This document shows positions 40,252-55,000 of a DNA stretch of 64,000 nt, piece by piece (the first letter of the stretch is position 1; the number at the start of each line of letters is the position of its first letter). Below the pieces are notes generated by a model. It was not told the DNA's origin, did not search any database, and was given only the letters and a program-made list of their open reading frames with translations. The DNA lies in the NCBI GenBank assembly GCA_036351155.1, contig JAZBOO010000280.1, positions 6,147 through 70,146 on the forward strand, written 5' to 3'. The position numbers were made by a program, and so were the translations under genes. This stretch comes from Candidatus Krumholzibacteriia bacterium (lineage in GTDB: Bacteria; Krumholzibacteriota; Krumholzibacteriia; LZORAL124-64-63).

Positions 40252-41894
40252 GGGTGTGTACCGCCAGGGAAATGGGGGCCATCGACCGGGCCACCATCGC
40301 AGCCGGAACTCCGGGCCGCGAACTCATGGAGCGCGCGGGGCAGGCCATGGCCGAGGTCTGCTGGGATTACCTGGAGGAACTGGATTCTCTGGGCCTGACC
40401 ACCTTTCCCGAGGACGCCAGCGAAGCCCCCCATGTCCTGGTTCTTTGCGGCAAGGGCAACAACGGGGGAGACGGGTTGGTTCTGGCCCGGCTCATGCACC
40501 TCGAAGGCGCCGAGGTCACGGTGATGATGCTGGCCGGACGCAACGACCTGACACCCGACACCGGGGTGAACTTCGATCTGCTGCCCCAGGGCGTGACCAT
40601 TGTCCACGCCGCCGGGCCCCAGTGGGCCTGTACCGTGGAACAGCTGGCCGAGCGGGCCGATGTGATGGTCGATGCGATCTTCGGGACGGGCATCAAACCG
40701 CCCCTGCGCACGCATCATGTCGACCTGATCCGGGCCATCAATGACACCGGCCTACCTTGCCTGGCCCTGGACATCCCCTCCGGGGTGTGCGGCGATGATG
40801 GAACGGTGGATCCGGTCGCGGTGGCCGCTGATCTGACGGTGACGGTGGGATTGCCCAAGCGCGGGCTGCTGTTCCGGCCCGGCCGCGATTTCACCGGAGA
40901 TGTTTCGGTGGTGGATATCGGCTTTGCCGCCGCCACCTGCCAGGAGCACACCGCCGATCATCAGTATCTGCTGCGGAACGATTACCTGGAGCTACTTCCT
41001 CCCCGCTTTCCCAGCGGGCACAAGTACACCCACGGCACTCTGGCCATTCTGGCCGGGTCGCGCCGCTTCGGTGGAGCGGCCCATCTGACCGGCCTGGGCG
41101 CCCTGCGCTCGGGAGTGGGACTGGTCACCCTGGCGGCCCCTCACAGTCTGGAAGTTCCCCTGCGGACAGGCCTGCCCGACCTCCTGACCATGCCTCTGGC
41201 CGAGACCGAGGCCGGGACCATCGCACCGCTGGACGACAGCATCTTGCAGGCCCTGTGGGCCAGGCAACGAGCCTGGGCGGTGGGGCCCGGGCTGGACAGT
41301 CATCCGGAGACCGACCGCTGGGTGGTCGAGACCCTGGCCGCCGGCACCTTGCCCGTGGTGGTGGATGCCGATGGTCTGGGGGCCTTTGCCCGGCGGGAAG
41401 TGGTGCCGAAGTTCGGGGCCACCGAGGTGGTGCTGACACCTCACGCGGCGGAACTGGCGCGCCTGATCGGGTGCTCGGCCGCCGAGGTCGAGTCCCGCAA
41501 GCTCGAGCTGGTGCCGGAGCTGGCCCGGCGCTGGAACGTGGTCCTGTTGCTGAAGGGGTCGACCACCCTGATCGCCGGCCCCGAGGGGACGCTGTATTTC
41601 AACACCACCGGCGATGATGCCCTGGCCAGGGGCGGTTCCGGCGATATCTTGACGGGGCTGATCGGCGGGTTGCTGGGCCAGGGAATGTCCGCCCTCGAGG
41701 CCGCTCTGCTGGGGGCATACGTCCACGGGCTGGCCGGTAGCTTGGCCGCTCAGGGGCGGAGCACCCGGGCAGTCCGGGTGACCGAGATTGCCGAAGCCAT
41801 GGGCCCGGTATTCGAAGACATGGAAAAAGAGGCCAGCGGGTCCGCCCGTCTGCGCGAGCGCATCTGGCCCGTGACCTCCGGAGACACCACATGA
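40248..41894 (+). CDS. nnr: Bifunctional NAD(P)H-hydrate repair enzyme Nnr (YjeF-N epimerase plus carbohydrate-kinase-like dehydratase)
   Basis: GKGNNGGDGLVLAR (YjeF_N), C-terminal GGSGDILTGLIGGLLGQG (dehydratase). Confidence 0.88.
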   Translation: MRVCTAREMGAIDRATIAAGTPGRELMERAGQAMAEVCWDYLEELDSLGLTTFPEDASEAPHVLVLCGKGNNGGDGLVLARLMHLEGAEVTVMMLAGRNDLTPDTGVNFDLLPQGVTIVHAAGPQWACTVEQLAERADVMVDAIFGTGIKPPLRTHHVDLIRAINDTGLPCLALDIPSGVCGDDGTVDPVAVAADLTVTVGLPKRGLLFRPGRDFTGDVSVVDIGFAAATCQEHTADHQYLLRNDYLELLPPRFPSGHKYTHGTLAILAGSRRFGGAAHLTGLGALRSGVGLVTLAAPHSLEVPLRTGLPDLLTMPLAETEAGTIAPLDDSILQALWARQRAWAVGPGLDSHPETDRWVVETLAAGTLPVVVDADGLGAFARREVVPKFGATEVVLTPHAAELARLIGCSAAEVESRKLELVPELARRWNVVLLLKGSTTLIAGPEGTLYFNTTGDDALARGGSGDILTGLIGGLLGQGMSALEAALLGAYVHGLAGSLAAQGRSTRAVRVTEIAEAMGPVFEDMEKEASGSARLRERIWPVTSGDTT

Positions 41895-42901
41895 AGATCC
41901 TGGGCATCGAAACCTCCTGCGACGACACCAGCGTGGCCCTTTTCGACAGCGAAGGCGGAGTGGCGGAAAATCTGGTCTCCTCCCAGGTGGACCTGCACAA
42001 CCATTTCGGCGGTGTGGTTCCGGAACTGGCCAGCCGGGCCCATCTGGTCAACCTGCTGCCCCTGGTGCAGATGTTGATGGACCGGCAAAAGCTGGCCCTG
42101 GACGACCTGGATGGGGTGGCGGTCACGGCGGGACCGGGGCTCATCGGGGCCCTGCTGGTGGGATTGTCCACGGGCAAGGCGGTGGCCATGGCGGCCGACC
42201 TGCCCCTGGTGGGAGTGCACCATATCGAGGGGCACATCCTGGCCAACGCGCTGACGCAGGAAATGCAATTGCCCGCGGTGGTGCTGGTGGTTTCGGGCGG
42301 TCACACCGAGGTGATCCACATGCCCGAGGTGGGACGCTACGAGCGGCTGGGCGCCACCCTGGACGATGCCGCCGGCGAAGCCTTCGACAAGACGGCCAAG
42401 ATCCTGGGCTTGCCATACCCGGGAGGGCCGCACATCGACCGGCTGGCCAAGCAGGGCCACCCCGGGCGCCACAGCTTTCCTCGCCCCCTGCTCAAGGACA
42501 AGCGGGTGGTGTTCAGCTTCAGCGGGCTGAAAACGGCGGCCCGCCTGGCGGTGGAAGGATTACCTCGCCCCCTGATGGACCAGGATGTGGCCGATGTCTG
42601 CTACGAGGTGCAGGAGGCCATCGTGGACTCACTGTGCGCCAAGCTGTTCATGGCCGCCCGCCGGAAGAAGGTGGGCGCCGTTTATCTGGCCGGGGGCGTG
42701 GCGGCCAACGGGCGCTTGCGTGAGCGCGTGGCCACCGAGGCCCAGAAACGCGGACTGCACTTTGTCCCGCCGGAACGCGTGTATTGCACCGACAACGCGG
42801 CCATGATTGCCTACGCCGGCTGGCAGCATTTCCAGCATGGCAGACAGGATGGTCTGGACCTGGATTCGTTCCCCCGGGGTTCCCTCTCTTCCTGGCGGTG
42901 A
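41891..42901 (+). CDS. tsaD: tRNA N6-adenosine threonylcarbamoyltransferase TsaD
   Basis: MKILGIETSCDDTSVAL, His-His metal motif (HIEGH), GVAANGRLR. Overlaps the nnr stop. Confidence 0.9.
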   Translation: MKILGIETSCDDTSVALFDSEGGVAENLVSSQVDLHNHFGGVVPELASRAHLVNLLPLVQMLMDRQKLALDDLDGVAVTAGPGLIGALLVGLSTGKAVAMAADLPLVGVHHIEGHILANALTQEMQLPAVVLVVSGGHTEVIHMPEVGRYERLGATLDDAAGEAFDKTAKILGLPYPGGPHIDRLAKQGHPGRHSFPRPLLKDKRVVFSFSGLKTAARLAVEGLPRPLMDQDVADVCYEVQEAIVDSLCAKLFMAARRKKVGAVYLAGGVAANGRLRERVATEAQKRGLHFVPPERVYCTDNAAMIAYAGWQHFQHGRQDGLDLDSFPRGSLSSWR

Positions 42902-43032
42902 CCTGTGTTCCCCGCCGAACAAAAAAACCTGCCTGAATAAGCCTCTCCTGGCATGTCCTTTGCCTGTTTTGCCTGACATATTCCACGTTCCCGGGGGACC
43001 GGGGGCCAAGCAAGCGCATCAAAAGGAAACAA

Positions 43033-44031
43033 ATGTCAGGAAACGCACGCATCCTGGTCGCGGATGACGAGCCGCATATCCGTCGCATTCTGCAGTTTCT
43101 GCTGGAGAATGAGGGGTTTGAGGTCTATCTGGCCGAAGACGGCAGTCAGGCCTGGGAAGCGGTGCGTTCATTTCAGCCGGATCTGGTCCTCCTGGATGTG
43201 ATGATGCCACGGATGGATGGTTTTGCAGTACTGGACGAGATTCGTGCCGGTTACGAAACCGCCACCCTGCCGGTGATCATGTTGACGGCCAAGGGCGAAT
43301 CGGTGGACAAGGTGCGGGGCCTCAAGGGTGGGGCCAACGACTACGTCATCAAGCCCTTCAATCACGATGAATTGTTGTTGCGGGTGGGAAACCTGCTGGA
43401 AGTGACCCGGCGCGAGCGCGAGGCCAATCCCCTGACGGGTCTCCCCGGAAACCGTTCCATCGAGCGGGAAACCCTGAGGCGCATCAGCTCGAAGGATCCT
43501 TTCGGGTTCATGTACATCGATATCGATCGATTCAAGAGTTTCAACGACTACTATGGCTATTCCCGGGGCGACCACGCCATCAGCTATCTGGCGGGAGTGC
43601 TGGTCAGCTGTTCCCGTCGGTTCGGCACCGGAGACGATTTCGTGGGCCACGTGGGAGGCGACGACTTCGTCCTGATCACCTCCAGCACCAAGGCGGAGGC
43701 GCTGGCGCGCAAGATCATCGAGGAATTCGACGAGGGTATTGCCGGCCTGCACGACGTGGAGGACTACCGGCGGGGGTACCTGGAGGTGGAAAGCCGAGCG
43801 GGGGAAGTGGAGCAGTTCCCCTTGATCACCCTGACGGTGGCTCTGGTGAACAATGCCGAGGGCCGGTTCCGTCATCCCGCCGAGATCAGCGACACCATGG
43901 TGGAGCTGAAGAAGTACGGCAAGACCATGGCCAGCAGTGTCCTGGTCAGGGAGCGCCGGAATCGCCAGGGTGAAGAGGAGTTCGTGGCCACGGGTGTGAA
44001 AACGCGTGGAGAGGGACCCGATCATGAATAG
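43033..44031 (+). CDS. Response regulator with receiver domain plus GGDEF-type domain carrying a variant GGDDF motif
   Basis: ILVADDE...LLDVMMP...KPF receiver. GGDEF-domain blocks TGLPGNR, DIDRFKSFND and GHVGGDDFVLI. Confidence 0.85.
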   Translation: MSGNARILVADDEPHIRRILQFLLENEGFEVYLAEDGSQAWEAVRSFQPDLVLLDVMMPRMDGFAVLDEIRAGYETATLPVIMLTAKGESVDKVRGLKGGANDYVIKPFNHDELLLRVGNLLEVTRREREANPLTGLPGNRSIERETLRRISSKDPFGFMYIDIDRFKSFNDYYGYSRGDHAISYLAGVLVSCSRRFGTGDDFVGHVGGDDFVLITSSTKAEALARKIIEEFDEGIAGLHDVEDYRRGYLEVESRAGEVEQFPLITLTVALVNNAEGRFRHPAEISDTMVELKKYGKTMASSVLVRERRNRQGEEEFVATGVKTRGEGPDHE

Positions 44032-46285
44032 AACCGACCCGCGCCAGATCGGCAGTCAGGGACTGGAGCAGACGGGCTGGAGTGAGCTGGCCTGGCAGGA
44101 TCACTTGCCGGACCTGGAAGAATTTTTGCGCCTGGTGGCCGTGCGGAGTTTGGCTCTGGCGCCCGGAGGAGTGACAGCCATCGGGGTGCCCCCCGTGGGG
44201 ATCTCCTATCTGGCCCCTCTGCACCATCAGCTGACGGGACTGGCCTGTCGTCTTGCCCGCAAGAGTGGTCAGCCGGGCTGGGATGCCTGGCCCGCCGCCT
44301 GGACCAAGGGAACCTTCGGTGCCCACGGTGAACAGGGTGCGGGCACGGGACCCTGGCCTGATTACTGGGCCTTGCCGGTGACTCCCGTCGAAGGGTGGGC
44401 CTGGCGAGAAGAGCGACTGCAGGTTGATGGCGCGACCCTGATGACCATCCTGGTCCTGTTCCCCGAGGATGAAGGGATGCAGGATGAGGTGAAAAGCGGT
44501 CTGGCCAGCCTCGGGTCCGAACTGGTGGTTCTGCTGCGCATGTGGGTGGCGGCGCGACGGGCTCAGGCCCAGCTGTCCCGCCTGAGCACCGAGAACCAGG
44601 CCCTGACCCGGCTCAATGTTCTGCAGGAAAAAGCGGTGGCCCGGGCCAGCCATGAATTCAAGACCCCGTTGACTTCGATCACCGCCTACACCGATGCCCT
44701 GCGGGAACAGATCACCGATGACGATTTCCCTCATGCCACGGAATTTCTGGACGTGATCCGGTCCGAGGCCGGACGGTTGCTGAGACTGGTCAACCGGATC
44801 AGCGATCAATCCCGCCTGAACGCCGGTCTGGAACTGCTGGAAGCGGTGCCCACGGAACTTCCGGACCTGATCGAGGGGGCGGCCTCTGCCCTGGGTCCCA
44901 GCCTGGCGGAAAAGAACCTCCACCTGACCACCGACTTTGCCCCCCACCTGCCCCCGGTGATGGCGGACGCCGATCTGGTGCGGCAGGTTCTGGTCAACCT
45001 GATGGGCAATGCGGTCAAGTACACGCCGAAGGGCGGCAACATCGAAGTGGTGGTGAGCGAACGCGAGGCCACCGTCAGGATCAGCATCAACGACACCGGC
45101 GTGGGGATTGCCGAAGAGGAACTCCAGCGTATCTTCCGTGAATTCTACCGCACGCGCGAACAGGCCGCCCTGCACGAGGGAACCGGGCTGGGACTGGCCA
45201 TTGTCCGCAGCATCGTGAATCTGCACGGTGGCTTCGTGACCGCCCGCCGTCGCCAGCCGGCCGGCACCAGCTTTGCCGTGCACTTGCCCAAGGAAATCCA
45301 CGCGCCGCATCCCTTGCCTCTGGCCTATACCTCGCGTGTGGACCGGGACCAGGCCTGGCGTCTGGTGAGCACGGTGTGCCGCCTGGCCGCCGAGTTGACC
45401 GGAAGCATGTCCGTGGAAATCCAGTTGCCCGACGCGGAAGGCCGGCCGGTGACGGTGGCCTCCATGGGGCATGGTCATTCTGGCGGAGAGAGCCCCTGGC
45501 TGACCCAGGATCTGGGCCAGGGCGGGGGGGCCTGCGGTCGGCTGCGGGTGGGATCGCCGCGAGAAGGTCAAGGCTACGATCAGGCCCGGGAGAAACAGCT
45601 GGCGGTGATTGCCGAAACCGCCGCCCTGGCCTTGCGCAGTCTGCTGCCGGAAGGTGCCGAGGGATCGGACACTTCCTCCAGCACTCTGGTGGCCAAGGTG
45701 GCCGAGGCGGTCCAGGCCATCCTGCAGATCCGGCGGTCCGGGGTCCCCACCTCGACGGCCGAGGCTCTGGATCTGATGGAGAAGCTGGGCCAGGCCATGA
45801 AGCTCTCCCCCGAGGTCATCCGCCGCCTCTGTTACGCCGCTCTGGTCCATGATGCGGGCATGGCCCGGGTCGAGGTGGAAATCGTGATGGGCACCTCGGC
45901 CCTGTCCTGGGATCAACGCGACGAGGTGGAACGCCACGTGGAGCAGGGCCTGGAATTGATGGCTCCGTTGCTGCCGGATCCGGAAACCCGTTCCTGCATT
46001 GCGCATCATCATGAACGATTTGACGGCCAGGGTTACCCCGCGGGCCTCAAGGGTGAAGATATTCCTCTGGGAGCACGCCTTCTGGCGGTCATCGACACCT
46101 GGTTTGCTCTGACGCGTGAGCGTCCCTATCGCCCCTGCCTGTCTCCGGAAGAGGCCTGGCAGGAAATGGAAAAACATAGCGGAAGCCAGTTCGACGCCGC
46201 CGTCGTCCGCGCTTTCGGAGACGTGCTGGCGAGCGAGGGAATCATCCCCGGATTTCCCGCTCCAACCCACCAAGACCGGGGCTGA
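44024..46285 (+). CDS. Cytoplasmic histidine kinase fused to GAF-like and HD-GYP domains
   Basis: ASHEFKTPLTSI (H-box), NAVKYT / GTGLGLAIV (HATPase), then LVHDAGM ... HHHERFDGQGYP (HD-GYP). Start ambiguous: ATG 44006 or 44024, both overlapping the upstream gene end. Confidence 0.82.
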   Translation: MNRTDPRQIGSQGLEQTGWSELAWQDHLPDLEEFLRLVAVRSLALAPGGVTAIGVPPVGISYLAPLHHQLTGLACRLARKSGQPGWDAWPAAWTKGTFGAHGEQGAGTGPWPDYWALPVTPVEGWAWREERLQVDGATLMTILVLFPEDEGMQDEVKSGLASLGSELVVLLRMWVAARRAQAQLSRLSTENQALTRLNVLQEKAVARASHEFKTPLTSITAYTDALREQITDDDFPHATEFLDVIRSEAGRLLRLVNRISDQSRLNAGLELLEAVPTELPDLIEGAASALGPSLAEKNLHLTTDFAPHLPPVMADADLVRQVLVNLMGNAVKYTPKGGNIEVVVSEREATVRISINDTGVGIAEEELQRIFREFYRTREQAALHEGTGLGLAIVRSIVNLHGGFVTARRRQPAGTSFAVHLPKEIHAPHPLPLAYTSRVDRDQAWRLVSTVCRLAAELTGSMSVEIQLPDAEGRPVTVASMGHGHSGGESPWLTQDLGQGGGACGRLRVGSPREGQGYDQAREKQLAVIAETAALALRSLLPEGAEGSDTSSSTLVAKVAEAVQAILQIRRSGVPTSTAEALDLMEKLGQAMKLSPEVIRRLCYAALVHDAGMARVEVEIVMGTSALSWDQRDEVERHVEQGLELMAPLLPDPETRSCIAHHHERFDGQGYPAGLKGEDIPLGARLLAVIDTWFALTRERPYRPCLSPEEAWQEMEKHSGSQFDAAVVRAFGDVLASEGIIPGFPAPTHQDRG

Positions 46286-46296
46286 AAGAGGTTGTC

Positions 46297-46686
46297 ATGA
46301 TCGACTCGGCCAGGATTCTCATCGTGGATGACGAGAAGCCCATCGCCACGTTGCTGGCACAGACCTTCGAGCAGGAAGGGCATCAGGTGGCGAGCGCCCA
46401 CGACGGGATCGACTGCATGAACAAGATGGCCAGCTTCCGGCCCGACGTGGTGATCATGGACATCATGATGCCCAAGCTGGACGGCATCGACACCACCAAG
46501 CTGATCCGACGCAATCAGAGCTACGCGGGGACCATCATCGTGGCGCTGTCGGCCAAGGCCGATGAAGACACCCGCCACAAGATGAAGGACGTGGGAGCCA
46601 ACCTGTTCATGCGCAAGCCGTTTTCCATCGCCAAGCTGGTTGCCCGCGTGTCTCACATGCTGGAAACCCGATCGCAATCGAGGTAG
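46297..46686 (+). CDS. Single-domain response regulator (CheY-like)
   Basis: ILIVDDE, D..IMDIMMP, LSAK, KPF. Confidence 0.88.
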   Translation: MIDSARILIVDDEKPIATLLAQTFEQEGHQVASAHDGIDCMNKMASFRPDVVIMDIMMPKLDGIDTTKLIRRNQSYAGTIIVALSAKADEDTRHKMKDVGANLFMRKPFSIAKLVARVSHMLETRSQSR

Positions 46687-46692
46687 CCAGGG

Positions 46693-49347
46693 GTGACACA
46701 CGTCCTGACCATTCTGCTGACCGCTGGGCCAACCCTGACCGGGTTCTGGGCCGTGATGTCGGTATCGTGGTGGACGACACTGATTCTCATGGCCGCCAGC
46801 GGGGTGGGGGTCTGGGTGGGGCAGATGGGGCGCCGGCAATATCTGCGCCGCCGTCTCAGTGCCCAGGCGGAGCGCCAGGCGCGGCAAGAAAAAACCGCGC
46901 AGCTGAACCGCCGATGCCGGGTTCTGGAAAAAATTCTGGCGGTGTCCACGCGCCTCAGCCGGATTCGCAATCCCCAGGAATTGCAAACCCGGATTGTGGA
47001 AGCCGTGGCGGAGATCGGGGGATTCAACCGGGTGGTCCTGTACCTGTGGTCCGACAGCACGGGAGCCTTCGAAGCCCGCAGTTTTGCGGGAATGGACGCC
47101 GAACAGCAGAAGCAGGTGGGCGGGCACCAGGTGTCCCGGGTCGAGTATGCCGCGCGGTGCAACGTGCGCTTCCGTTTTTCGAACAGCTTCCTGGTCCACG
47201 ATGGTCCCGTTCAAGAAGGACCGGCGCGAGAACGCACCCCCGGTGACCCGGTGACCGGAGGCGGATCAGGCAAGGTCTGGCGCGCCGGACAAGTTCTGGT
47301 GGCCCCGTTGCTGAGTTCCGATGGTGAGGAGATCGGGTACCTGGATCTGGACGAACCCGTCCACGGTGAGGTGCCGGATGTGGTGGACCTGCGACAGCTG
47401 GAGTTCCTGTTCCAGCATGCGGCGGCCAGCCTGGAGTCGGCCGGCATTCATCACACCTTGGCCCGCAGCAACGCCGAGCTGCAGGTGGCCTCCGAGAAGC
47501 TGAACAGCCTGAACGACATGAAGAATAACTTCGTGGCGAATGTCAGTCACGAGTTGCGCACGCCGCTGACCTCGATCTCGGCCTACGCCGAGATGTTGCA
47601 GCAGAACATGGGCACCATGAGCGAAGAGGTGCGGAGCGAGTTCCTGAGGGTGATCCACAACGAGAGCCTGAAGCTGACCGACGTGATCAACGACCTGCTG
47701 GAACTGGGCAACATGGAAAACGGGCGGGTCCAGTCGCCGTCCATGACGGTGGACCTGACGGCCATGGTGACGCGTCTGGTGGATTCCTGGCGATCGCGCG
47801 CCCAGGAAAAGGGAATTGCCCTGAAACTGGAGTGTGATATTCCCGCGCTATCCATGCCTGCCGACGGATTGCTGATGCAGCAGATGCTGACCCACCTGCT
47901 GAGCAACGCCTTCAAGTTTTCCGCGAAGGGCGGACTGGTGCGGGTGACTCTGGCGGAAACGGGGACGGCGGTGCGATTGTCGGTCGAGGACCGCGGCATC
48001 GGCATTCCCGAGGAGAAGCTGGGACGTATTTTCGACCCGTTCTACCAGGTGGACGGCTCGGCCACGCGACAGCACAACGGACAAGGCGTGGGGCTGGCCA
48101 TCTGTCGGGATATCGTCAATCACCACGACGGGCGCATCTGGGCGGAAAATCTCCAGCCCAGGGGGGCCCGGTTCACGGTGCTGCTCCCGCGGCGTTCTCC
48201 GGTCTTGCAGCCCGTGGCCACCGATCCCATCAGCGGATCTCCTTTCCAGCCGGGCGAGTTCATGCAGCGGGTCATGCACTGGGTCGGGGAAAGCCTGGGG
48301 GTCCAGACGGCCACCCTGATGATGCCCGACTCGGACCATGAGTACCTGGCCATCCGGGCGGCGGTGGGCTTGCCGGAGTCGGTGGTCCAGAGTGCCCGGG
48401 TGCGACGGGGATCCGGGTTTGCCGGCCGGGTCTGGGAAAGCGGACAAACCCTCCTGGTGGATGACGTGGCTGCCGAGGGCCTGCCTGGGCGCGACCAGAG
48501 TGAACCCCGCTATTCCACGTCGAGCCTTCTGTGTGTCCCCTTGAAGAACAAGGACGAGTGCCTGGGGGTGGTGGCGGTCAACAACCGCTTCGACGGCAAG
48601 CCGCTGGACGCCGATGATCGCCTCCTGCTGGAAAGCCTGGCTCCCAGACTGGCCGAACTTTTACGGCGTCATGCCCACTGGCAGGCCGATTCTCATCATT
48701 TCGCCCAGATCCGGGATACCCTGCGGACCATCACGGGCATTGGCCACCTGCGCCAGGAAAGCCTCCTGGAAACCTGCCAGGAGATCTGCCTGGCCAGCGC
48801 GCGGGCGATCAACATGCCGGATGAAGATCTGCGGCACCTGGCCTTTGCCCTGCAGTTCTATGATGTGGGGCTGGGCTATGTCCCGCGGGAGCTGCTGAAC
48901 AAGCCCGGCCCCCTGGACGATGACGAGCAGCGCACGGTACGCCAGCACGTCAAGACGGGTCTGGTGGTCCTGGAGCCTCTGGCCGCGCCGTCCAAGATTC
49001 GCCAGTTGATCCTGCACCACCACGAGAACGTGGATGGGTCGGGTTATCCCGAAGGTCTGGCCGGGGAGTCCATTCCTCTGGGTTCTCGACTGTTGCGGCT
49101 GACCGACACCCTGGCGGCCCTGCTCAGCACCCGACCCTGGCGGCCGGCGCGCAGTCTGGATGAGGCTCTGGAGGAGATCCGCTGGGGCATCGGGACTCAT
49201 TATTGTCCGCGAATGGCCGAGATCTTCTTGCGGGAAGCTGAATTGCGCCGACCGCGGATAGTGGAGCAACAGGAACGCGGCATGGACCACGCCGTTTTCA
49301 AGCGGCCCGTTCTGGATCCCGCGCAGATGGCTCCCCTCAACAGTTGA
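46693..49347 (+). CDS. Membrane-anchored histidine kinase with GAF, HisKA/HATPase, second GAF and a divergent HD-GYP-like domain (Y-D instead of H-D)
   Basis: N-terminal TM helices. NVSHELRTPLTSI, NAFKFS, GQGVGLAICRDI. C-terminus FYDVGLGY ... HHHENVDGSGYP aligns to the HD-GYP of the 44024 protein with His replaced by Tyr. Confidence 0.82.
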   Translation: MTHVLTILLTAGPTLTGFWAVMSVSWWTTLILMAASGVGVWVGQMGRRQYLRRRLSAQAERQARQEKTAQLNRRCRVLEKILAVSTRLSRIRNPQELQTRIVEAVAEIGGFNRVVLYLWSDSTGAFEARSFAGMDAEQQKQVGGHQVSRVEYAARCNVRFRFSNSFLVHDGPVQEGPARERTPGDPVTGGGSGKVWRAGQVLVAPLLSSDGEEIGYLDLDEPVHGEVPDVVDLRQLEFLFQHAAASLESAGIHHTLARSNAELQVASEKLNSLNDMKNNFVANVSHELRTPLTSISAYAEMLQQNMGTMSEEVRSEFLRVIHNESLKLTDVINDLLELGNMENGRVQSPSMTVDLTAMVTRLVDSWRSRAQEKGIALKLECDIPALSMPADGLLMQQMLTHLLSNAFKFSAKGGLVRVTLAETGTAVRLSVEDRGIGIPEEKLGRIFDPFYQVDGSATRQHNGQGVGLAICRDIVNHHDGRIWAENLQPRGARFTVLLPRRSPVLQPVATDPISGSPFQPGEFMQRVMHWVGESLGVQTATLMMPDSDHEYLAIRAAVGLPESVVQSARVRRGSGFAGRVWESGQTLLVDDVAAEGLPGRDQSEPRYSTSSLLCVPLKNKDECLGVVAVNNRFDGKPLDADDRLLLESLAPRLAELLRRHAHWQADSHHFAQIRDTLRTITGIGHLRQESLLETCQEICLASARAINMPDEDLRHLAFALQFYDVGLGYVPRELLNKPGPLDDDEQRTVRQHVKTGLVVLEPLAAPSKIRQLILHHHENVDGSGYPEGLAGESIPLGSRLLRLTDTLAALLSTRPWRPARSLDEALEEIRWGIGTHYCPRMAEIFLREAELRRPRIVEQQERGMDHAVFKRPVLDPAQMAPLNS

Positions 49348-49432
49348 CCAGTTGAGACTCAACCTGGTGCCGGAGATGCCGATCACCGGGGACAGGAAAC
49401 GCCCCATTCGCCCATAGACCGGAGGAACGGCC

Positions 49433-49804
49433 TTGTTCAAAGTCCTGATCGCCGATGACGAGCACAACATTCGCAACATCCTGGATTTCAGCCTGCATGC
49501 CGAAGGTTTCGATGTCATCGCCGTGCACAGCGGGGAGGAGGCCTTCGCGCGGGCGGTGGAAGAGATCCCGAGCCTGATCATTCTGGACGTCATGATGCCC
49601 GGCCAGGGGGGCATGGAAACCTGCAAGCAATTGAAGCAGGACCAGCGGACCGCCGGCATTCCCGTGATTCTCCTGACGGCGCGCAGCAGCAAGCAGGATC
49701 GTGAGGAAGGGATGGCCTGTGGCGCCGATCAGTACATCACCAAGCCCTTCAGCCCTCAGAAAGTGATCGGGGCGGTCCAGGAACTTCTGGGTGCCATGTC
49801 CTGA
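49433..49804 (+). CDS. Single-domain response regulator (CheY-like)
   Basis: GGAGGAA lies 6 nt upstream of TTG 49433. VLIADDE, LDVMMP, TAR, KPF. Confidence 0.85.
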   Translation: MFKVLIADDEHNIRNILDFSLHAEGFDVIAVHSGEEAFARAVEEIPSLIILDVMMPGQGGMETCKQLKQDQRTAGIPVILLTARSSKQDREEGMACGADQYITKPFSPQKVIGAVQELLGAMS

Positions 49805-49818
49805 CCGGATTTTTCTCG

Positions 49819-49849
49819 GCCCCTGCCAGCTGGCGGGGGCTTTTTTTTT
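49819..49849 (+). terminator. Rho-independent terminator GCCCCTGCC-agct-GGCGGGGGC followed by T9
   Basis: GC-rich stem with one G-U wobble and nine consecutive T, 15 nt after the receiver gene stop. Confidence 0.85.
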
Positions 49850-49916
49850 GGTGGTTGGACTGCGGCCAGCCGGCAGGGTAATTTGGGGGCACCCCAACCA
49901 AGGCGGAGCCGACCCC

Positions 49917-51923
49917 GTGGACTTTCTGGTCAACATCATCTTGCCCGTTCCCCTCTTGCAGGACTTTTCCTACCGTTGTGTTGTGGACGAGGAAGCGCAA
50001 GAGACGGCCCCGGAAGCCGGCGATCTGGTGGCGGTTCCCTTCGGCCGCCGCAAGAAGGTCATCGGCCTGGTGGTGGCGGTGAAACCGCTGGCCGCCGAGG
50101 TGACCAAGGTGGACGGTTTCACCCTGAAAAACGTGGCCCATCGCTATGGACCGGAATATCGGATCACCGGAGAGCGCCGCCGCCTTCTGGACTGGATGGC
50201 GGCCTACTATGCCTTGCCCGCCGGAGAGGTGGTGCCCCTGTTCCATCCTCCTGGTCCCGGGACCCGATCCAGAGGCAAGGCCGCCACCGAGGAGTTCCCC
50301 ACCGGCGATAACCAGAAGATCGTGCTGACCCCCGCCCAGAACCGTGCTGTGGCCATGGCCGCCGAGCACCTTGAGGCCGATCGCTTCGGAGTGATGTTGC
50401 TGCATGGCGTGACGGGCAGCGGCAAGACCGAGGTCTACCTGACGGTCATCGAACAGGCCCTGGCCGCGGGGAAAGGGGCCATTTTTCTGCTCCCGGAAAT
50501 TGCCCTGACGCCCCAGATGCTGGCCCGGGTCACCGCGCGCTTCGGCAGTCGAGTGGCCGCCCTTCATTCCGGTCTGGCCGCCGGCCAGAGGTGCCAGGTG
50601 CACGAGAAGGCCGCGCGGGGGGAAATCGAGGTGGTGGTGGGTCCGCGATCTGCCCTGTTTGCGCCGGTGCAGAACCTGGGTGTGATCGTGGTGGACGAGG
50701 AACACGAGGGGTCCTACAAGCAGGATGAAAAACCGCGCTACCACGCCCGTCACGCCGCGCTGGTGCGGGGCCGGGAAAACGGGGCGGTGGTCATTCTGGG
50801 CTCGGCCACACCCGATCTCGAAAGCATGGACAATGCTCGCCGCGGGCGCTATCAGCTGCTGGAGCTGCCCGACCGCATGGGCGGACACCTCCCTGTGGTG
50901 GAGCTGGTGGACATGCGGGGACCGCAGGCCATGGCAGGATTCTCTCCCCACCTGGTGGAGGCCATCGGTGAAACTCTGGATCAGAAGCGTCAGGTCATCC
51001 TGTACTACAACCGTCGGGGCTTTGCGCGCGTGATGCAATGCCGGGACTGCGGCGAGGTGGTCATGTGCCCCAACTGCGATATCGGGCTCACCTATCACCT
51101 GCGTCCCCGCCGCCTGCTGTGTCACTACTGCGACCACACGCGCGAGGTATGCGACACCTGTCCCGCCTGTGGATCCGAGAACTTCCTGCCCCAGGGGGGC
51201 GGCACCGAGAAGGTGGAGCTCAATCTGGAAGCCCATTTTCCGGAGGCGCGGCTGCTTCGGCTGGACCGCGACACGACCTCCCGCCGCGGCAGCCATCACC
51301 GCATCCTGGCCAGCTTTGCCCGCCGGGAAGCCGATATCCTGGTGGGCACCCAGATGGTGGCCAAGGGGCACCACTTCCCCGGGGTGGGTCTGGTGGGGGT
51401 GCTGGCGGCTGATGATGGTCTGGGCCTGCCCGATTTCCGCGCCGCCGAACGCACCTTCCAGCTGTTGACCCAGGTGGCCGGCCGCAGCGGGCGCACCGAG
51501 AAGGGCCGGGTGGTGTTTCAGACCTATCGCCCGGACGATCCGGTGATTTCGGCGGCCAGCTGCCACGACTATCATCAGTTCGAGGAGCAGGAGCTGCCCC
51601 AGCGGCAGGCCCTGGGCTATCCTCCCGGCCGGCGCCTGGTGCGGGTGGCCGTCAGCGGTCGCCTGTTGAAGCGCGCCGAGGAAGTGTCCGGCCAGCTGGG
51701 CGACGTCTTGCGTACCAACCTGGCCGGGCCCGAGATCACCGTCCTGGGCCCCGCCCCGGCCGTCTTTCCCCGCCTTCATGATCGCTACCGATTTCAGATC
51801 CTGATCAAGGGCACTCTGGGCCTGGAGGCCAAGGCCTGGCTGGCTCAAACCCTCGAGGCCTTGCGGCAGCAGTTCCGGGACATCGATGTGTTCCACGACG
51901 TCGATCCCACGTCGGTTTTTTAG
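49917..51923 (+). CDS. priA: Primosomal protein N' (PriA helicase)
   Basis: N-terminal 3'-DNA-binding region, Walker A GVTGSGKTEVY, DEEHEGSYKQ (DEAH), Cys-rich Zn module CPNCD...CHYCDH...CPACG. GTG 49917 is chosen because the ORF-track start at 49791 would contain the upstream terminator. Confidence 0.88.
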   Translation: MDFLVNIILPVPLLQDFSYRCVVDEEAQETAPEAGDLVAVPFGRRKKVIGLVVAVKPLAAEVTKVDGFTLKNVAHRYGPEYRITGERRRLLDWMAAYYALPAGEVVPLFHPPGPGTRSRGKAATEEFPTGDNQKIVLTPAQNRAVAMAAEHLEADRFGVMLLHGVTGSGKTEVYLTVIEQALAAGKGAIFLLPEIALTPQMLARVTARFGSRVAALHSGLAAGQRCQVHEKAARGEIEVVVGPRSALFAPVQNLGVIVVDEEHEGSYKQDEKPRYHARHAALVRGRENGAVVILGSATPDLESMDNARRGRYQLLELPDRMGGHLPVVELVDMRGPQAMAGFSPHLVEAIGETLDQKRQVILYYNRRGFARVMQCRDCGEVVMCPNCDIGLTYHLRPRRLLCHYCDHTREVCDTCPACGSENFLPQGGGTEKVELNLEAHFPEARLLRLDRDTTSRRGSHHRILASFARREADILVGTQMVAKGHHFPGVGLVGVLAADDGLGLPDFRAAERTFQLLTQVAGRSGRTEKGRVVFQTYRPDDPVISAASCHDYHQFEEQELPQRQALGYPPGRRLVRVAVSGRLLKRAEEVSGQLGDVLRTNLAGPEITVLGPAPAVFPRLHDRYRFQILIKGTLGLEAKAWLAQTLEALRQQFRDIDVFHDVDPTSVF

Positions 51924-51963
51924 GCTCTGTTCAACGTTCAAAAACTATCACAAAACTGAACAA

Positions 51964-51992
51964 TTGTGCCAGCCGGAGCCCTTTGGTATACT
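51964..51992 (+). promoter_or_regulatory. Near-consensus sigma70-type promoter TTGTGC-17 bp-TATACT upstream of the cysteine protease gene
   Basis: Hexamers and 17-bp spacer read directly. The ATG at 52056 is preceded by GAAAGG. Confidence 0.5.
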
Positions 51993-52055
51993 TTATTCAT
52001 CAATACCCCCGAATACGAAATCATCGGGATTAATGCACTGTCTGAAAGGTTTGCC

Positions 52056-55000
52056 ATGCGCAAGTCCTGCATCTTGCTGGGAATCTGTCTGTTTCTCGGG
52101 CTGGCGTCCGGAGCTGTCGCCGCCGATCAACTGGATATCGAGGCCATTCGTCAGGACATCGAGCGCTACGGCTGGTCCTTCGAAGTGGACGATGCCTTCT
52201 CGCGCAGTCTGACCCCGGAGCAGCGGCAGAACCTGCGCGGTTACCGCCCCCCGGAGGACTACCAGAAGATTCTGGACGAGAACTTGAAGATCTTTCCGGT
52301 GGACAAGGATCTGCCCTCGAGTCTGGACTGGCGGGATGTGAACGGCGTGACCTCGGTCAAGAACCAGGGGGACTGCGGAAGTTGCTGGGCCTTCGCGGCC
52401 ACCGCCGAGCTGGAATCGTTCATCAAGATCTACTACGGCGAAGACACCAACCTGTCCGAGCAGCAGGTGGTTTCCTGCAATCCCTACGGGGCCGATTGCG
52501 ATGGGGGCTGGGCCAACGCGGCTTACTTCGTGTTCCGCCAGTATGGGGCCGCCCAGGAAAACTGCATTCCCTACCTGGGCATGAGCCCGCCCGCTGCTCC
52601 GTGCGAGCAGGATGATTTCAAGAAGTACGGCTTCATCACCGGGTGGCATTCCATTTCCAACAACGTGCAGCAGATCAAGGAAGCCCTTCAGGACGGTCCG
52701 GTGTGCACGGCCATTGACGCCAGCGATGAGTTCGAGGCCTACGAGAGTGGCTGCTACGATGTGCCCGGCGGCTGGACCAATCACCTGGTGCTCATCGTGG
52801 GTTACGACGATCGTGCCTGCGGGAACAACGGGGCCTGGATCATCAAGAACAGCTGGGGTTACGACTTCGGCGATGGCGGGTACATCTACGTCCAGTACGG
52901 AGCCGGATCCACGGGACAGAGCGTGACCCAGCTGGAGTATACCCCCCCTCCGACTTCCATTTCCATCCACACCGGGGTCACCGAAGAGCCCATCTATGCC
53001 GACGAGACTGCTCTGATCGAGTGGGGCACCTCGGGGGCCGCCGCACCCCTGGTGGACATCTACTTCGGCAACGAGGGCCACTGTCACCCGGTGCTGGTGG
53101 CGGAGAATTTGCCCAACACCGGCAGCTACAACTGGACGGTGCCCAACCTGGGGACCAACTACGGCAGCCTGGTGGTCTATCCCAGCAGCGGCACCGAGGA
53201 CGGCTTCGGGATCACCGAGGAATACATCCGGGTGGTCGGTCACAAGACCCGTTACGTCTCGCCCAGCGGCAGTAACACCGCGCCTTTCGAATCTCCCGAA
53301 ACGGCGGCCCACAGCATCAGTGATGCCGTGGTGGCCTGCACCGGGACCGACAGCGTGCTGGTGGCAGGCGGCCACTATCTCGGCACGGTGACCGTCGGAA
53401 CCACGGTGCGACTGCTCGGTGGCTACAGCCAGGATTTCAGCGTCCGCGACCCGGAGACCTACCCCACCGTGATCCAGAGCGGCAACACCGGAATGCGTTT
53501 CCTGGAAGGCTCCGGGGACTTCGGGATGGCCGACGGATTCGTGTTCCGCGATTGCACCGGCAGTCCCGGCAGCGTGCCGGAATCAGGGAGTCATGGCGGC
53601 GGCATCTTTGTGCGCAACGCCTCGCCCCTGATTCTCAACTGTGTGTTCGAAGAAAATCTGGCCTCGGCCAGTTCAGGGACGGGCTTCGGTGGCGGTATCT
53701 GCGTGGTGGGCGGCCAGCCCGAGATCAGGGATTGCGTTTTCCGCGACAACGTGGGCAGCCAGGGTGGCGCGGTCGGTATTTTCGATGGGGCCCACGCGAC
53801 CCTGATCGATTGTCAAATTCTGGGCAATGCCTGCCGGGACAGCTCCAGCGCCAACACCGGCGCCGGCCTGTTCGTCAGAAATGCCGCCGTGACTCTCCAG
53901 GGCGGCGCCATCGGTGGCAATGGCGGGGGAGCGGGTGCGGGCATGCACCTCCTGGGTTCCCAGGCGGACCTCAGCCGAGTGGACATCCGGAACAACCGGG
54001 CCCAGGTCGATGGGGGCGGTATTCTGGCCGTGGACTCCACACTGGATCTGGCCAATGTGAAGCTGACCGGTAACGTGTCGAACACCGGCAGTGGTGGTGG
54101 ACTGTCCGGTCAGGGAACCTCTCTCACCCTGCGCAACGTGCAGATCACCGACAACCGCAGTGCCATCCTGGGTGGTGGCATGTTCGCCAGCGGGGCCACC
54201 GGACTGGTGGAGAATTGCCTGGCCAGCGGCAACACCGCGGGCAATACGGGGGGCCTGATGGCCCTGGCTTCCGGGCCCATGACCGTGCGCAACAATATCG
54301 TCAGCGAGAATTTTGGCGGCGGCCTCACCGTGATCGGTTCGGAGGTCACCGTCGGCTCGAACAACGTGTGGCAGAACGAAGGCGGCGACTACGTGTCCAT
54401 GGCCGTACCGGCGGCTGATTTTTCCGCCGATCCTCTGTTCCTGAATGCGGCGGCGGGCGATTACGGTCTGGCGCAGTATTCTCCGTGTGTGGACCGTGGC
54501 GAGATGGCCGCGGATTGCCTGGACCCGGACGGCTCCCGAGCGGACGTGGGTCTGCTGGGTGGCCCGGGCGCGGACTTCGTGGCCCCTGATCATGTGACCG
54601 GGGCGGCACTCGAGGATCTGGGCGGCGGAACCTGGCGCCTGACCTGGAACGCCCTGGGGGCCGACAACATCAGCCACTACGTGGTTTACCGGGACACCTC
54701 CGAGGTGTTCGAGCCCTCGCCCAGCAAGGCCCTGGCCACCATCGACCACCCGGGAACGGTGTTCGAGGATTCCCCGGGTATGGAGTGCTACTATCTGGTG
54801 GCGGCCATCGATGAGACGGGGTACAGCGGCGGATATTCCGCGCAGGTGAGCACAGCCGGAAGCATCAGTGCGGCCGGCGACAGCGATTTGCCCCGAAGCC
54901 TGGCCATCGCCAAGGTGGTGCCCAACCCCTTCAATCCCCGGACCACCCTGAGCTACGATGTGCCCCGGACCGGGCGCGTGGAACTGGCGGTTTACGACAT

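What the first reader, a model, noticed from the sequence alone, without database searches (positions are those of the whole stretch)
43033..49804. Five-gene signalling cassette built around two histidine kinases fused to HD-GYP domains
The gene order is: receiver-GGDEF regulator, histidine kinase-GAF-HD-GYP, CheY-like receiver, TM-GAF-histidine kinase-GAF-HD-GYP, CheY-like receiver, then a strong terminator. Gaps are tiny or overlapping, so this is probably one operon. A histidine-kinase catalytic core covalently fused to an HD-GYP c-di-GMP phosphodiesterase is, to my knowledge, not a characterised architecture. HD-GYP is normally paired with a receiver (RpfG type) or stands alone. Two paralogous copies sit in tandem. 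Together with a diguanylate-cyclase-type regulator and two free receivers, this suggests a phosphorelay that directly sets c-di-GMP synthesis and degradation.
Basis: partly seen in the sequence, partly recalled or inferred. Interest (0 to 1): 0.8.

Follow-up and report, generated by a model that had tools for sequence, protein, structure and literature searches.

The report
Conserved kinase–HD-GYP c-di-GMP signalling cassette
An uncultured Krumholzibacteria genome carries a five-gene operon, conserved across its lineage, in which two histidine kinases are each fused to an unusual HD-GYP (c-di-GMP-type) domain and sit beside a variant cyclase and two receivers; the fusion is real, recurrent and unstudied, but its parts are all known kinds and the HD-GYP domains are not standard phosphodiesterases.

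Summary
Five co-oriented genes at 43033-49804 encode REC-GGDEF-like, HisKA-HATPase_c-(GAF-like)-HD-GYP, REC, TM-GAF-HisKA-HATPase_c-GAF-HD-GYP and REC. The gaps are -8, 11, 6 and 85 nt, and a 10-bp stem plus T9 terminator follows.

The organism is a Candidatus Krumholzibacteria MAG. The cassette lies between tsaD and priA in every relative I examined. A four-gene core also occurs in more distant uncultured lineages. Each kinase has at least 120 clusters at 90% identity, and about 70 clusters at 50% identity share the fused core. All are metagenomic. I found no paper describing the fusion.

The interpretation needs three corrections:
- Both HD-GYP domains lack the first metal-binding Glu/His segment and the HDxGK lysine.
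- The second kinase carries YD instead of HD in 99% of its family.
- The cyclase motif is an invariant GGDDF.

The HD-type/YD-type pair is ancient, and both HD-GYP domains are as conserved as the kinase cores. The c-di-GMP recognition motifs (GYP, RxY[K/R]) are kept.

My best reading is a self-contained phosphorelay and c-di-GMP feedback module. The HD-type kinase may hydrolyse c-di-GMP, while the YD-type more likely senses it. Catalysis is untested. I rate it a new variant of a known kind, of moderate interest.

The parts
42902..43032 (+). 131-nt intergenic region upstream of g1. It is the presumed promoter region of the cassette.
   Evidence: It is the gap between the tsaD stop (42901) and the g1 ATG. 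The scan found no sigma-70-type consensus, so the promoter itself is inferred only.
43033..44031 (+). g1: response regulator of 332 aa, made of a receiver plus a divergent GGDEF-like cyclase domain. The phospho-acceptor Asp lies in LLDVMMP (43189-43209), LTGLPGN at 43432-43452 and GGDDF at 43654-43668.
   Evidence: Pfam Response_reg 2e-32 and GGDEF 2e-17, profile 5-101/161. GGDDF, ANPLTGLPGN and YGYxxGD are invariant in 10 orthologues from three lineages. There is no RxxD I-site. The best PDB relatives are active diguanylate cyclases such as DgcZ and WspR.
44024..46285 (+). g2: cytoplasmic histidine kinase of 753 aa counted from ATG 44024 (an upstream GTG at 44006 is also possible). Domain order: N-terminal alpha/beta sensor-like domain, long signalling helix, HisKA (H-box 44648-44668), HATPase_c, shortened GAF-like domain, then 'HD-type' HD-GYP (VHDAGM 45845-45862, HHERFDGQGYP 46007-46039, RPYR 46121-46132).
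   Evidence: Pfam. The 753-aa orthologue P0121 is 92% identical. Orthologues have GAF at the equivalent position. AlphaFold model pLDDT 81. HD is 100% conserved and HHE/GYP/D/R invariant in 117 clusters.
46297..46686 (+). g3: single-domain receiver of 129 aa, with the acceptor Asp in IMDIMMP (46453-46473).
   Evidence: Pfam Response_reg 8e-29. Its alpha-1 helix differs from those of g1 and g5. It is present in the Krumholzibacteria loci but absent from the distant loci L009, L012 and L013.
46693..49347 (+). g4: membrane-anchored histidine kinase of 884 aa. Domain order: TM helix (~46750-46824), coiled coil, GAF (~46963-47457), HisKA (H-box 47545-47565), HATPase_c (~47863-48195), GAF (~48250-48663), then 'YD-type' HD-GYP (FYDVGL 48856-48873, NKPGP 48898-48912, HHENVDGSGYP 49018-49050, RPWR 49132-49143).
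   Evidence: Pfam. It is 100% identical to an nr protein of Candidatus Krumholzibacteria. YD occurs in 99% of 119 clusters, with H in none. AlphaFold pLDDT 85. Foldseek matches PmGH 4MCW over 342 columns, E 1e-15. phmmer matches 4MCW at 2.9e-23 over residues 569-849.
49433..49804 (+). g5: single-domain receiver of 123 aa with a TTG start and a GGAGGA ribosome-binding site 8 nt upstream. The acceptor Asp is in ILDVMMP (49580-49600).
   Evidence: Pfam Response_reg 7e-28, sequence. Its alpha-1 helix resembles that of the g1 receiver. It is conserved in all loci, including the distant ones.
49818..49850 (+). Intrinsic-terminator-like hairpin (10-bp stem, 8 G-C pairs) followed by T9. It ends the cassette before priA.

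Best explanation
The cassette is a lineage-conserved module that couples a two-component phosphorelay to c-di-GMP.

Shown by sequence:
- Both kinases keep every catalytic box of HisKA-type kinases.
- All three receivers keep the phospho-acceptor set.
- Each kinase carries a PmGH-like GAF-HD-GYP module after its ATP-binding domain.
- These HD-GYP domains keep the c-di-GMP recognition motifs (GYP tyrosine, RxY[K/R]) and the ligands of the second metal site (His, HH, Asp).
- They have lost the first Glu/His segment and the HDxGK lysine.
- They come as an ancient pair, one with HD and one with YD.

Inferred mechanism:
1. Cytoplasmic or membrane-proximal signals are read by the N-terminal GAF-type domains and set autophosphorylation.
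2. Phosphate passes to the REC-GGDDF protein. That protein dimerises and makes c-di-GMP, as PleD, WspR and DgcR do.
3. Phosphate also passes to the single-domain receivers, which act as sinks or protein-binding outputs.
4. c-di-GMP then binds the C-terminal HD-GYP modules of the kinases.
5. The HD-type (g2) hydrolyses c-di-GMP. The YD-type (g4), whose first metal site is altered, acts mainly as a c-di-GMP sensor that feeds back on its own kinase/phosphatase balance.

The net effect would be a closed loop that sets the c-di-GMP level and reports it through phosphorylation.
For: - Domain content and catalytic motifs. Across both families the invariant columns are H286/E287/T290/P291 (H box), N405, D433/G435/G437, F447 and G463/G465/G467.
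- Receiver motifs.
- PmGH-like module.
- Motif conservation: in 119 + 117 clusters H, HHE, DGxG(Y/H)P, D and R..R are 100% conserved. HD is 100% in the g2 family. YD is 99% in the g4 family. K/R-P-G is kept in the g4 family only.
- RxY[K/R] and the GYP tyrosine are the c-di-GMP specificity elements.
- The HD-GYP domains are as conserved as the kinase cores: mean majority-residue fraction per column 0.73 against 0.72-0.78, and 0.69 against 0.66-0.69.
- One HD-type and one YD-type kinase occur together in every locus, including the distant ones.
- g1 keeps the Mg-binding Asp and the guanine-reading Asn/Asp, and GGDDF can be active.
- The g1 and g5 receivers share an alpha-1 helix, which suggests a shared kinase.
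- Precedents: HD-GYP as a c-di-GMP receptor (DvhD), YN-GYP without activity (PA2572), and a kinase with a C-terminal c-di-GMP-binding domain (SgmT, title and abstract).
Against: - No biochemistry exists for any member, and all members come from uncultured organisms.
- Retention of all second-site metal ligands in the YD type argues that it still binds metal and could still be a hydrolase. A pure receptor such as DvhD lost them.
- The HD type lacks H189, E185, the HDxGK lysine and the KPG lysine, so its activity is also uncertain.
- Xanthomonas RpfG lacks a key His and has low reported activity, yet a very similar Lysobacter RpfG hydrolyses c-di-GMP robustly. Missing ligands therefore do not predict activity reliably.
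- GGDDF has been shown active only once, in an engineered fusion.
- Which kinase feeds which receiver is inferred from adjacency and helix similarity only.
- No c-di-GMP effector or output gene is visible in the cassette.
Confidence: 0.4

Rival explanations
1. Both C-terminal domains are active c-di-GMP phosphodiesterases. The proteins are bifunctional kinase/phosphodiesterases whose hydrolase activity is set by the same sensor input, or by autophosphorylation. The REC-GGDDF protein is the opposing cyclase.
For: - HD_5 hits of 1e-32.
- All second-site metal ligands, the Asp of HD/YD, the GYP tyrosine and RxY[K/R] are invariant.
- The domains are as conserved as the kinase cores.
- Some HD-GYPs lacking a canonical ligand still hydrolyse c-di-GMP, such as Lysobacter RpfG, PA4781 and VCA0681.
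Against: - The His of HD is Tyr in 99% of the g4 family.
- Both families lack the E185/H189 segment and the HDxGK lysine.
- The only studied Tyr-for-His variant, PA2572 YN-GYP, has no detectable activity.
- Keeping two distinct types for so long suggests different roles.
Confidence: 0.25
2. Neither domain hydrolyses anything. Both are c-di-GMP receptor domains, like DvhD or the GGDEF domain of SgmT. They place the two kinases under second-messenger control, and c-di-GMP is degraded by enzymes encoded elsewhere.
For: - Both families have lost two ligands of the first metal site and the conserved lysine.
- Precedents exist in DvhD, PA2572 and SgmT.
- The nucleotide-contact motifs are kept.
Against: Receptor-only HD-GYPs such as DvhD lost the HD and HH ligands (SQ, MN). 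Here H, HH, D and D are 100% conserved in about 240 clusters, which is hard to explain without a metal site.
Confidence: 0.2
3. The cassette is not about c-di-GMP turnover. The HD-GYP-like domains would be metal-, redox- or other-nucleotide-sensing or protein-interaction modules (for example a Tyr-ligated iron site), and the GGDDF domain would be a non-catalytic or non-GTP output.
For: - HD-GYP activity depends on ferrous iron and is lost on oxidation, so the site could serve as a redox sensor.
- The GGDEF Pfam hit covers only 60% of the profile, with a ~25-aa insertion.
- The conserved genomic neighbours are housekeeping genes (tsaD, priA), not biofilm or motility genes.
Against: - The RxY[K/R] motif is of the c-di-GMP type (R/K, not the Q/N seen in cGAMP enzymes), and the GYP tyrosine is kept.
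- g1 keeps the guanine-specific Asn/Asp pair and is not the Hypr Ser type.
- A cyclase-type gene and HD-GYP-type genes co-occur in every locus.
Confidence: 0.1

Closest known systems
PmGH of Persephonella marina (GAF-HD-GYP, PDB 4MCW/4MDZ)
   Same: The C-terminal half of both kinases is a GAF plus HD-GYP module of this type. phmmer gives 2.9e-23 over g4 residues 569-849, and Foldseek gives E 1e-15 over 342 columns. The His250, HH, Asp305, GYP and RxY[K/R] equivalents are kept.
   Different: - Here the module is fused behind a complete histidine-kinase core.
- The E185/H189 segment is replaced by family-specific motifs.
- HDxGK is HDxGM or YDxGL.
- The His of HD is Tyr in g4.
- PmGH is a proven trinuclear-iron phosphodiesterase, whereas activity here is unknown.
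RpfC/RpfG-type systems (sensor kinase plus REC-HD-GYP response regulator)
   Same: Both link a histidine kinase to an HD-GYP domain and so put c-di-GMP signalling under two-component control.
   Different: In RpfG the HD-GYP is controlled through its own receiver, on a separate protein. Here no receiver lies between the kinase and the HD-GYP, which share one polypeptide. L003 (Rhizobiales) is an ordinary RpfG-type neighbour pair, not a fusion.
DvhD of Desulfovibrio vulgaris and PA2572 of P. aeruginosa (non-catalytic HD-GYP variants)
   Same: These are HD-GYP domains with substituted metal ligands that signal without hydrolysing c-di-GMP. DvhD binds c-di-GMP and changes conformation. PA2572 has Tyr in place of the His of HD.
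   Different: DvhD has also lost the HH pair, and PA2572 has also lost the Asp (YN). The domains here keep the Asp, HH, His and the distal Asp. Neither precedent is fused to a kinase core.
SgmT of Myxococcus xanthus (histidine kinase with a C-terminal c-di-GMP-binding GGDEF domain)
   Same: It is a histidine kinase that carries, after its catalytic core, a domain from the c-di-GMP enzyme repertoire used as a receptor (PMC3509222, title and abstract seen).
   Different: The appended domain is GGDEF (I-site binding), not GAF-HD-GYP. SgmT is a hybrid kinase with a DNA-binding partner. No cyclase gene is part of that unit, as far as I recall.
PleD/WspR/DgcR response-regulator diguanylate cyclases, and Geobacter GSU1937 (GGDDF)
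   Same: g1 has the REC-GGDEF order and aligns to DgcR over residues 3-240. It keeps the Mg-binding Asp and the guanine-reading Asn/Asp. GSU1937 shows that a GGDDF site can make cyclic dinucleotides.
   Different: - The motif is an invariant GGDDF rather than GG[DE]EF.
- YGY replaces YGH.
- There is a ~25-aa insertion after the motif.
- There is no RxxD I-site.
- Scores fall below the NCBIfam cut-offs for PleD and DgcR.
HK853-RR468 of Thermotoga maritima (HisKA kinase with a single-domain receiver partner)
   Same: It is the closest solved kinase core, at 39% identity and E 6e-45. Its cognate partner is a stand-alone receiver, like g3 and g5.
   Different: HK853 has no domains after the ATP-binding domain.

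Membership tests
HD-GYP domain (class II c-di-GMP phosphodiesterase) | HHExx(D/N)GxGYP motif | tested here: met
   HHERFDGQGYP in g2 and HHENVDGSGYP in g4. HHE, DG and G.P are 100% conserved in both families. The Tyr is 100% in the g4 family, and 76% Tyr with 19% His in the g2 family.
HD-GYP domain (class II c-di-GMP phosphodiesterase) | HD dyad (PmGH H221/D222, metal ligands) | tested here: inconclusive
   g2 and its family meet it, with HD at 100%. g4 and its family do not, with YD at 99% and His at 0%.
HD-GYP domain (class II c-di-GMP phosphodiesterase) | N-terminal metal-binding segment (PmGH E185 and H189; canonical D-x-E/D-T-G-x-H) | tested here: not met
   Aligned against a canonical RpfG-type domain, the segment is either gapped or replaced by RxGVPT in the g2 family and VGHLRxESL in the g4 family, with no His at the ligand position. 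The phmmer alignments to 4MCW start after this segment.
HD-GYP domain (class II c-di-GMP phosphodiesterase) | Second-site ligands (PmGH H250, H276, H277) and D305 | tested here: met
   All are 100% conserved in 119 + 117 clusters and invariant in the mixed alignment A1.
HD-GYP domain (class II c-di-GMP phosphodiesterase) | c-di-GMP contact motifs: KPG and RxY[K/R] | tested here: inconclusive
   RPYR (g2) and RPWR (g4) are present, with both Arg 100% conserved. KPG is kept in the g4 family (K/R 97%) but is G-E/T-S in the g2 family.
HD-GYP domain (class II c-di-GMP phosphodiesterase) | Metal-dependent hydrolysis of c-di-GMP | not testable with these tools
   This needs purified protein. No member is from a cultured organism.
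HisKA-type sensor histidine kinase | H box with phospho-acceptor His, plus N, G1, F and G2 boxes | tested here: met
   HisKA and HATPase_c score above the Pfam cut-offs in both proteins. H286, N405, D433/G435/G437, F447 and G463/G465/G467 are invariant across both families. The closest structure is HK853 at 39% identity.
GGDEF diguanylate cyclase | GG[D/E]EF active-site motif | tested here: not met
   The motif is GGDDF in g1 and in all 10 orthologues inspected.
GGDEF diguanylate cyclase | Mg-binding Asp and guanine-reading Asn/Asp (PleD D327, N335, D344) | tested here: met
   YIDIDRFKSFNDYYGYSRGD keeps all three residues, and they are invariant in orthologues. Residue roles are from established knowledge of PleD.
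GGDEF diguanylate cyclase | Full-length match to the family profile, and RxxD inhibitory site | tested here: not met
   The Pfam GGDEF hit covers profile positions 5-101 of 161 only. The position five residues upstream of GGDDF has no conserved Arg-x-x-Asp. The I-site is optional in the family.
Response-regulator receiver (REC) | Acidic pair, phospho-acceptor Asp, Thr/Ser and Lys | tested here: met
   DDE, (L/M)D(V/I)MMP, L(T/S)A(K/R) and KPF are present in g1, g3 and g5 and in their orthologues. Pfam E-values are 1e-28 to 1e-32.
RpfG family (REC-HD-GYP response regulator) | Receiver domain directly upstream of HD-GYP in one polypeptide | tested here: not met
   g2 and g4 contain no REC domain. 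The HD-GYP follows HATPase_c and GAF.

The most novel reading that the evidence does not exclude
The paired HD-type and YD-type kinase-HD-GYP proteins may form a new class of c-di-GMP-gated histidine kinases. In this reading a remodelled HD-GYP metal site, with Tyr replacing His and a new RxGVPT / GHLRxES loop replacing the Glu/His loop, has become a C-terminal second-messenger or redox input. That input would switch the kinase between kinase and phosphatase states. One paralogue would destroy the messenger and the other would read it. The resulting autonomous oscillator or homeostat would be fixed beside priA across whole uncultured phyla.
Probability: 0.2. Interest if true: 0.7.

Novelty: new variant of a known kind. 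Interest (0 to 1): 0.55.

Why it matters
Two-component systems and c-di-GMP are usually linked through a receiver domain (PleD, WspR, RpfG) or through c-di-GMP binding to a kinase (CckA and ShkA, from memory; SgmT). Here the kinase core is joined directly to a GAF-HD-GYP module. The joined genes are kept as a fixed HD/YD pair with a variant cyclase, at one genomic position, throughout Krumholzibacteria and in related uncultured lineages.

If the proposed split into one enzyme and one sensor is right, three things follow:
- It would give a compact natural example of a phosphorelay that both writes and reads its own second messenger.
- It would give a second, independent case of HD-GYP turned into a receptor.
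- It would give a natural experiment on what the first metal site of HD-GYP is for.

It also flags a distinct HD-GYP clade ([HY]DxG[ML], no Glu/His loop) that current annotation labels simply 'HD domain-containing phosphohydrolase'. If instead both domains are ordinary phosphodiesterases, this is one more domain shuffle among signalling proteins.

Tried and rejected
- The genome-contig scan with g4 returned only one true relative, L001. The other four loci were ordinary kinases.
- L003 (Rhizobiales) looked like a fusion because it matched query residues 280-845. It is an RpfG-type REC-HD-GYP gene next to a hybrid kinase, so I rejected it.
- The third homologue search, using the g1 cyclase domain alone, was saturated by Krumholzibacteria orthologues. 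It gave no view of the wider GGDDF family.
- Foldseek against afdb50, intended as a UniProt-wide architecture and taxonomy survey, was unavailable.
- Foldseek against the PDB with full-length g4 only confirmed the two halves (HK853-like, PmGH-like) and gave no residue-level information on the metal site.
- The two alignments disagree on whether the Glu/His segment is deleted or substituted. The Pfam HD_5 hit of g2 spans profile positions 5-170 without a large gap, which favours substitution in g2. For g4 the hit starts at profile position 21. Either way, no His occupies the ligand position.
- NCBIfam gave no family-level assignment for any of the five proteins. All hits were below cut-off.
- The sigma-70 promoter scan found nothing.
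- I considered that g1 might be a Hypr-type cGAMP synthase. I rejected this because the specificity Asp is kept rather than replaced by Ser.
- I considered that the long antisense ORFs (for example 43946-46273 on the minus strand) might be real genes. I rejected this as an artefact of 64% G+C, because the + strand ORFs carry all the domain hits.

Full report

Yes. The + strand carries five ORFs at the stated coordinates. Pfam gives the following.

| Gene | Coordinates | Pfam hits |
|---|---|---|
| g1 | 43033-44031 | Response_reg 2e-32; GGDEF 2e-17, profile positions 5-101 of 161 only |
| g2 | 44006/44024-46285 | HisKA 3e-14; HATPase_c 8e-29; HD_5 7e-32 |
| g3 | 46297-46686 | Response_reg 8e-29 |
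| g4 | 46693-49347 | GAF (two stretches); HisKA 4e-18; HATPase_c 4e-29; HD_5 4e-32 |
| g5 | 49433-49804 | Response_reg 7e-28 |

- With the ATG at 44024, g2 overlaps g1 by 8 nt. That start gives a 753-aa product, the same length as the 92%-identical database protein P0121.
- The other gaps are 11, 6 and 85 nt.
- A 10-bp hairpin with 8 G-C pairs, followed by nine T, lies 14 nt after the g5 stop.
- No terminator-like site with a comparable stem lies inside the cassette on the + strand.
- Upstream are yjeF/nnr (40248-41894) and tsaD (41891-42901). Downstream are priA and a papain-family protease with a type IX secretion sorting tail.

**2. Source and recurrence**

g4 is 100% identical to an nr protein of Candidatus Krumholzibacteria. 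Each kinase has at least 120 clusters at 90% identity with the same Pfam architecture. Those that carry a source name with an organism are mostly labelled Krumholzibacteria, -iia or -iota. A few are labelled Latescibacteria, Gemmatimonadales or simply 'bacterium'.

I examined eight related contigs.

| Loci | Lineage | Gene order |
|---|---|---|
| L001, L006, L007/L008, L010, L011 | Krumholzibacteria, g4 identity down to 49% | tsaD, g1, g2, g3, g4, g5, priA (L006 has an extra TPR gene between g5 and priA) |
| L009, L012 | More distant | tsaD, REC-GGDDF, 270-aa stand-alone kinase, HD-type kinase, YD-type kinase, REC, priA |
| L013 | More distant | REC-GGDDF, HD-type kinase, YD-type kinase, REC, priA |

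A profile of the fused core was searched against 1.84 billion representatives at 50% identity. About 70 clusters had the full kinase-GAF-HD-GYP span. The rest of the top 150 were multi-repeat kinases, mostly 1,500-3,500 aa, or proteins without an HD-GYP motif. The members of ten divergent clusters were all metagenomic.

The architecture is therefore well populated, but only in uncultured lineages.

**3. Anatomy of the kinases**

- Both proteins keep every catalytic box. H286, E287, T290, P291, N405, D433, G435, G437, F447, G463, G465 and G467 (g4 numbering) are invariant across a mixed alignment of both families.
- The closest solved core is HK853, at 39% identity.
- g4 has one N-terminal hydrophobic helix followed by WRR. 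The helix is clear in 68 of 71 relatives. A long coiled coil and a GAF domain follow. There is no periplasmic domain.
- g2 is cytoplasmic. It has a 120-aa alpha/beta N-terminal domain and an 80-residue helix leading into the DHp.
- After the ATP-binding domain both carry GAF plus HD-GYP, the architecture of PmGH. phmmer gives 2.9e-23 over g4 residues 569-849, and Foldseek gives E 1e-15 over 342 columns.
- In g2 of this genome the GAF is shortened and falls below Pfam detection. Orthologues have a clear GAF at the same position.
- g2 and g4 are 29% identical over 594 aa.

**4. The HD-GYP domains are not canonical**

I aligned 119 g4-family and 117 g2-family clusters with a canonical RpfG-type domain.

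| Feature (PmGH numbering) | g2 family | g4 family |
|---|---|---|
| H250, HH(E), DGxG(Y/H)P, D305, both Arg of RxY[K/R] | 100% | 100% |
| HD dyad | HD 100% | YD 99%, His 0% |
| Lys of HDxGK | Met 99% | Leu/Met |
| Lys of KPG | Gly 79% | K/R 97% |
| Segment supplying E185 and H189 | replaced by invariant RxGVPT | replaced by VGHLRxESL |

- No His stands at the H189 ligand position in either family.
- The phmmer alignments to 4MCW begin after the E185/H189 segment.
- Residue roles are taken from Galperin and Chou.
- The domains are as conserved as the kinase cores. The mean fraction of sequences sharing the commonest residue per column is 0.73 against 0.72-0.78 in the g4 family, and 0.69 against 0.66-0.69 in the g2 family. 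They are therefore under selection, not decaying.
- Every representative cluster with the fusion has [HY]DxG[ML], never HDxGK. This points to one distinct clade.
- Each locus holds one HD-type and one YD-type gene, so the split is old.

**5. The cyclase-type regulator and the receivers**

The g1 output domain is a divergent GGDEF.
- GGDDF, ANPLTGLPGN and YGYxxGD are invariant in ten orthologues from three lineages.
- A ~25-aa insertion follows the motif, and there is no RxxD site.
- The Mg-binding Asp and the guanine-reading Asn/Asp are kept. The specificity residue is Asp, not the Ser of Hypr cGAMP synthases.
- GGDDF has been shown active once, in Geobacter GSU1937. The GGDDF/EAL protein PA3258 showed no cyclase phenotype.
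- g1 is the most conserved protein of the cassette, at 62-84% identity over the cyclase domain among clusters other than its own.

All three receivers keep the acceptor set. The alpha-1 helices of g1 and g5 are alike (IRRILQFLL and IRNILDFSL), while that of g3 differs (IATLLAQTF). g3 is missing from the distant loci. This suggests that g1 and g5 share a kinase and that g3 was added later. That is inference only.

**6. Mechanism**

What the sequence shows:
- two competent kinases;
- three competent receivers;
- one probable GTP-using cyclase;
- two conserved domains that keep c-di-GMP contacts and a partial metal site.

What I infer:
1. The kinases phosphorylate g1, which then makes c-di-GMP, as in PleD, WspR and DgcR.
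2. They also phosphorylate the single-domain receivers, which act as sinks or outputs.
3. c-di-GMP returns to the kinases through their HD-GYP modules.
4. The HD-type hydrolyses c-di-GMP. The YD-type mainly senses it and shifts its kinase/phosphatase balance.

Precedents:
- DvhD is an HD-GYP without metal ligands that binds c-di-GMP and changes conformation.
- PA2572 is a YN-GYP without detectable activity.
- SgmT is a kinase with a C-terminal c-di-GMP-binding domain.

The main objection is that the YD-type keeps all second-site ligands. That fits a working metal site better than a pure receptor.

Missing ligands also do not predict activity reliably. Xanthomonas RpfG lacks a key His and has low reported activity, yet a very similar Lysobacter RpfG is robustly active.

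I therefore give the split model 0.4, the 'both are phosphodiesterases' model 0.25, the 'both are receptors' model 0.2, and a non-c-di-GMP role 0.1.

**7. Comparison with what is known**

The parts are known kinds: a HisKA kinase, REC domains, a GGDEF-like domain, and a PmGH-like GAF-HD-GYP module. The following are not described in the literature I could search:
- the covalent kinase-HD-GYP fusion without an intervening receiver;
- the HD/YD pairing;
- the remodelled first metal site;
- the fixed cassette.

It is not a member of the RpfG family, because it has no REC. It fails two defining features of canonical HD-GYP enzymes: the E/H segment in both families, and HD in g4. g1 fails the GG[DE]EF motif. 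In outline it works like a two-component system coupled to c-di-GMP.

**8. Verdict**

I rate it a new variant of a known kind. Interest is moderate (0.55). It is a recurrent, strongly conserved, unstudied arrangement with an intriguing paired active-site variant. However, domain fusions among signalling proteins are common, all members are uncultured, and no function is demonstrated.

Noticed in passing
window 25610-30394 (+): A 1594-aa ORF has HAMP, HisKA and HATPase_c only in its last ~400 residues. The first ~1190 residues have no Pfam hit. It may be a giant sensor kinase with an unknown extracytoplasmic or repeat region.
   Followed up: no
window 51966-55172 (+); also L006 16803-19838, L007 14481-17615: A papain-family cysteine protease is fused to a beta-helix region and a FlgD_ig/type IX secretion sorting tail. 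It is conserved immediately downstream of priA in all Krumholzibacteria loci examined.
   Followed up: partly
window 49791-49917: The mechanical ORF for PriA starts at GTG 49791, inside g5 and across the terminator. The real start is probably GTG 49917, after the hairpin.
   Followed up: partly
window 43946-46273 (-), 49749-51941 (-) and others: Very long antisense ORFs (775 aa, 730 aa) mirror the real genes. They have no domain content on inspection and are expected in DNA of 64% G+C.
   Followed up: partly
L009 7182-7991; L012 7171-8004: In the distant lineages a 270-aa stand-alone kinase with no sensor domain sits between the REC-GGDDF gene and the HD-type kinase. Its H box reads GHELxKP rather than SHE. 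These lineages lack the middle receiver g3.
   Followed up: partly
L010 4200-6887: YjeF/Nnr and TsaD are called as a single 895-aa product in this Krumholzibacteria contig. This is either a real fusion or a lost stop codon in the assembly.
   Followed up: no
g4 residues ~515-660 (window ~48235-48672): The GAF domain between the kinase and HD-GYP is nearly as conserved as the catalytic domains (0.71). It contains long invariant stretches such as NEPRYSTPSLLCVPL and VNNRxDGxPLDxDDR. This suggests a specific, unknown ligand.
   Followed up: no
window 31136-38135 (+): A DUF4175 protein (1262 aa), a TPR protein (648 aa) and a 485-aa ORF with no Pfam hit lie upstream. TPR genes and an adjacent ~425-aa gene without Pfam hits sit in the same place in L010 and L011, and an Rce1-like protease gene follows in all the Krumholzibacteria loci retrieved with gene calls.
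   Followed up: no
window 57034-62422 (+): An ordinary 2-oxoglutarate dehydrogenase operon (E1, E2, E3), with an NDH-2-type oxidoreductase at 55517-56899 on the minus strand.
   Followed up: no
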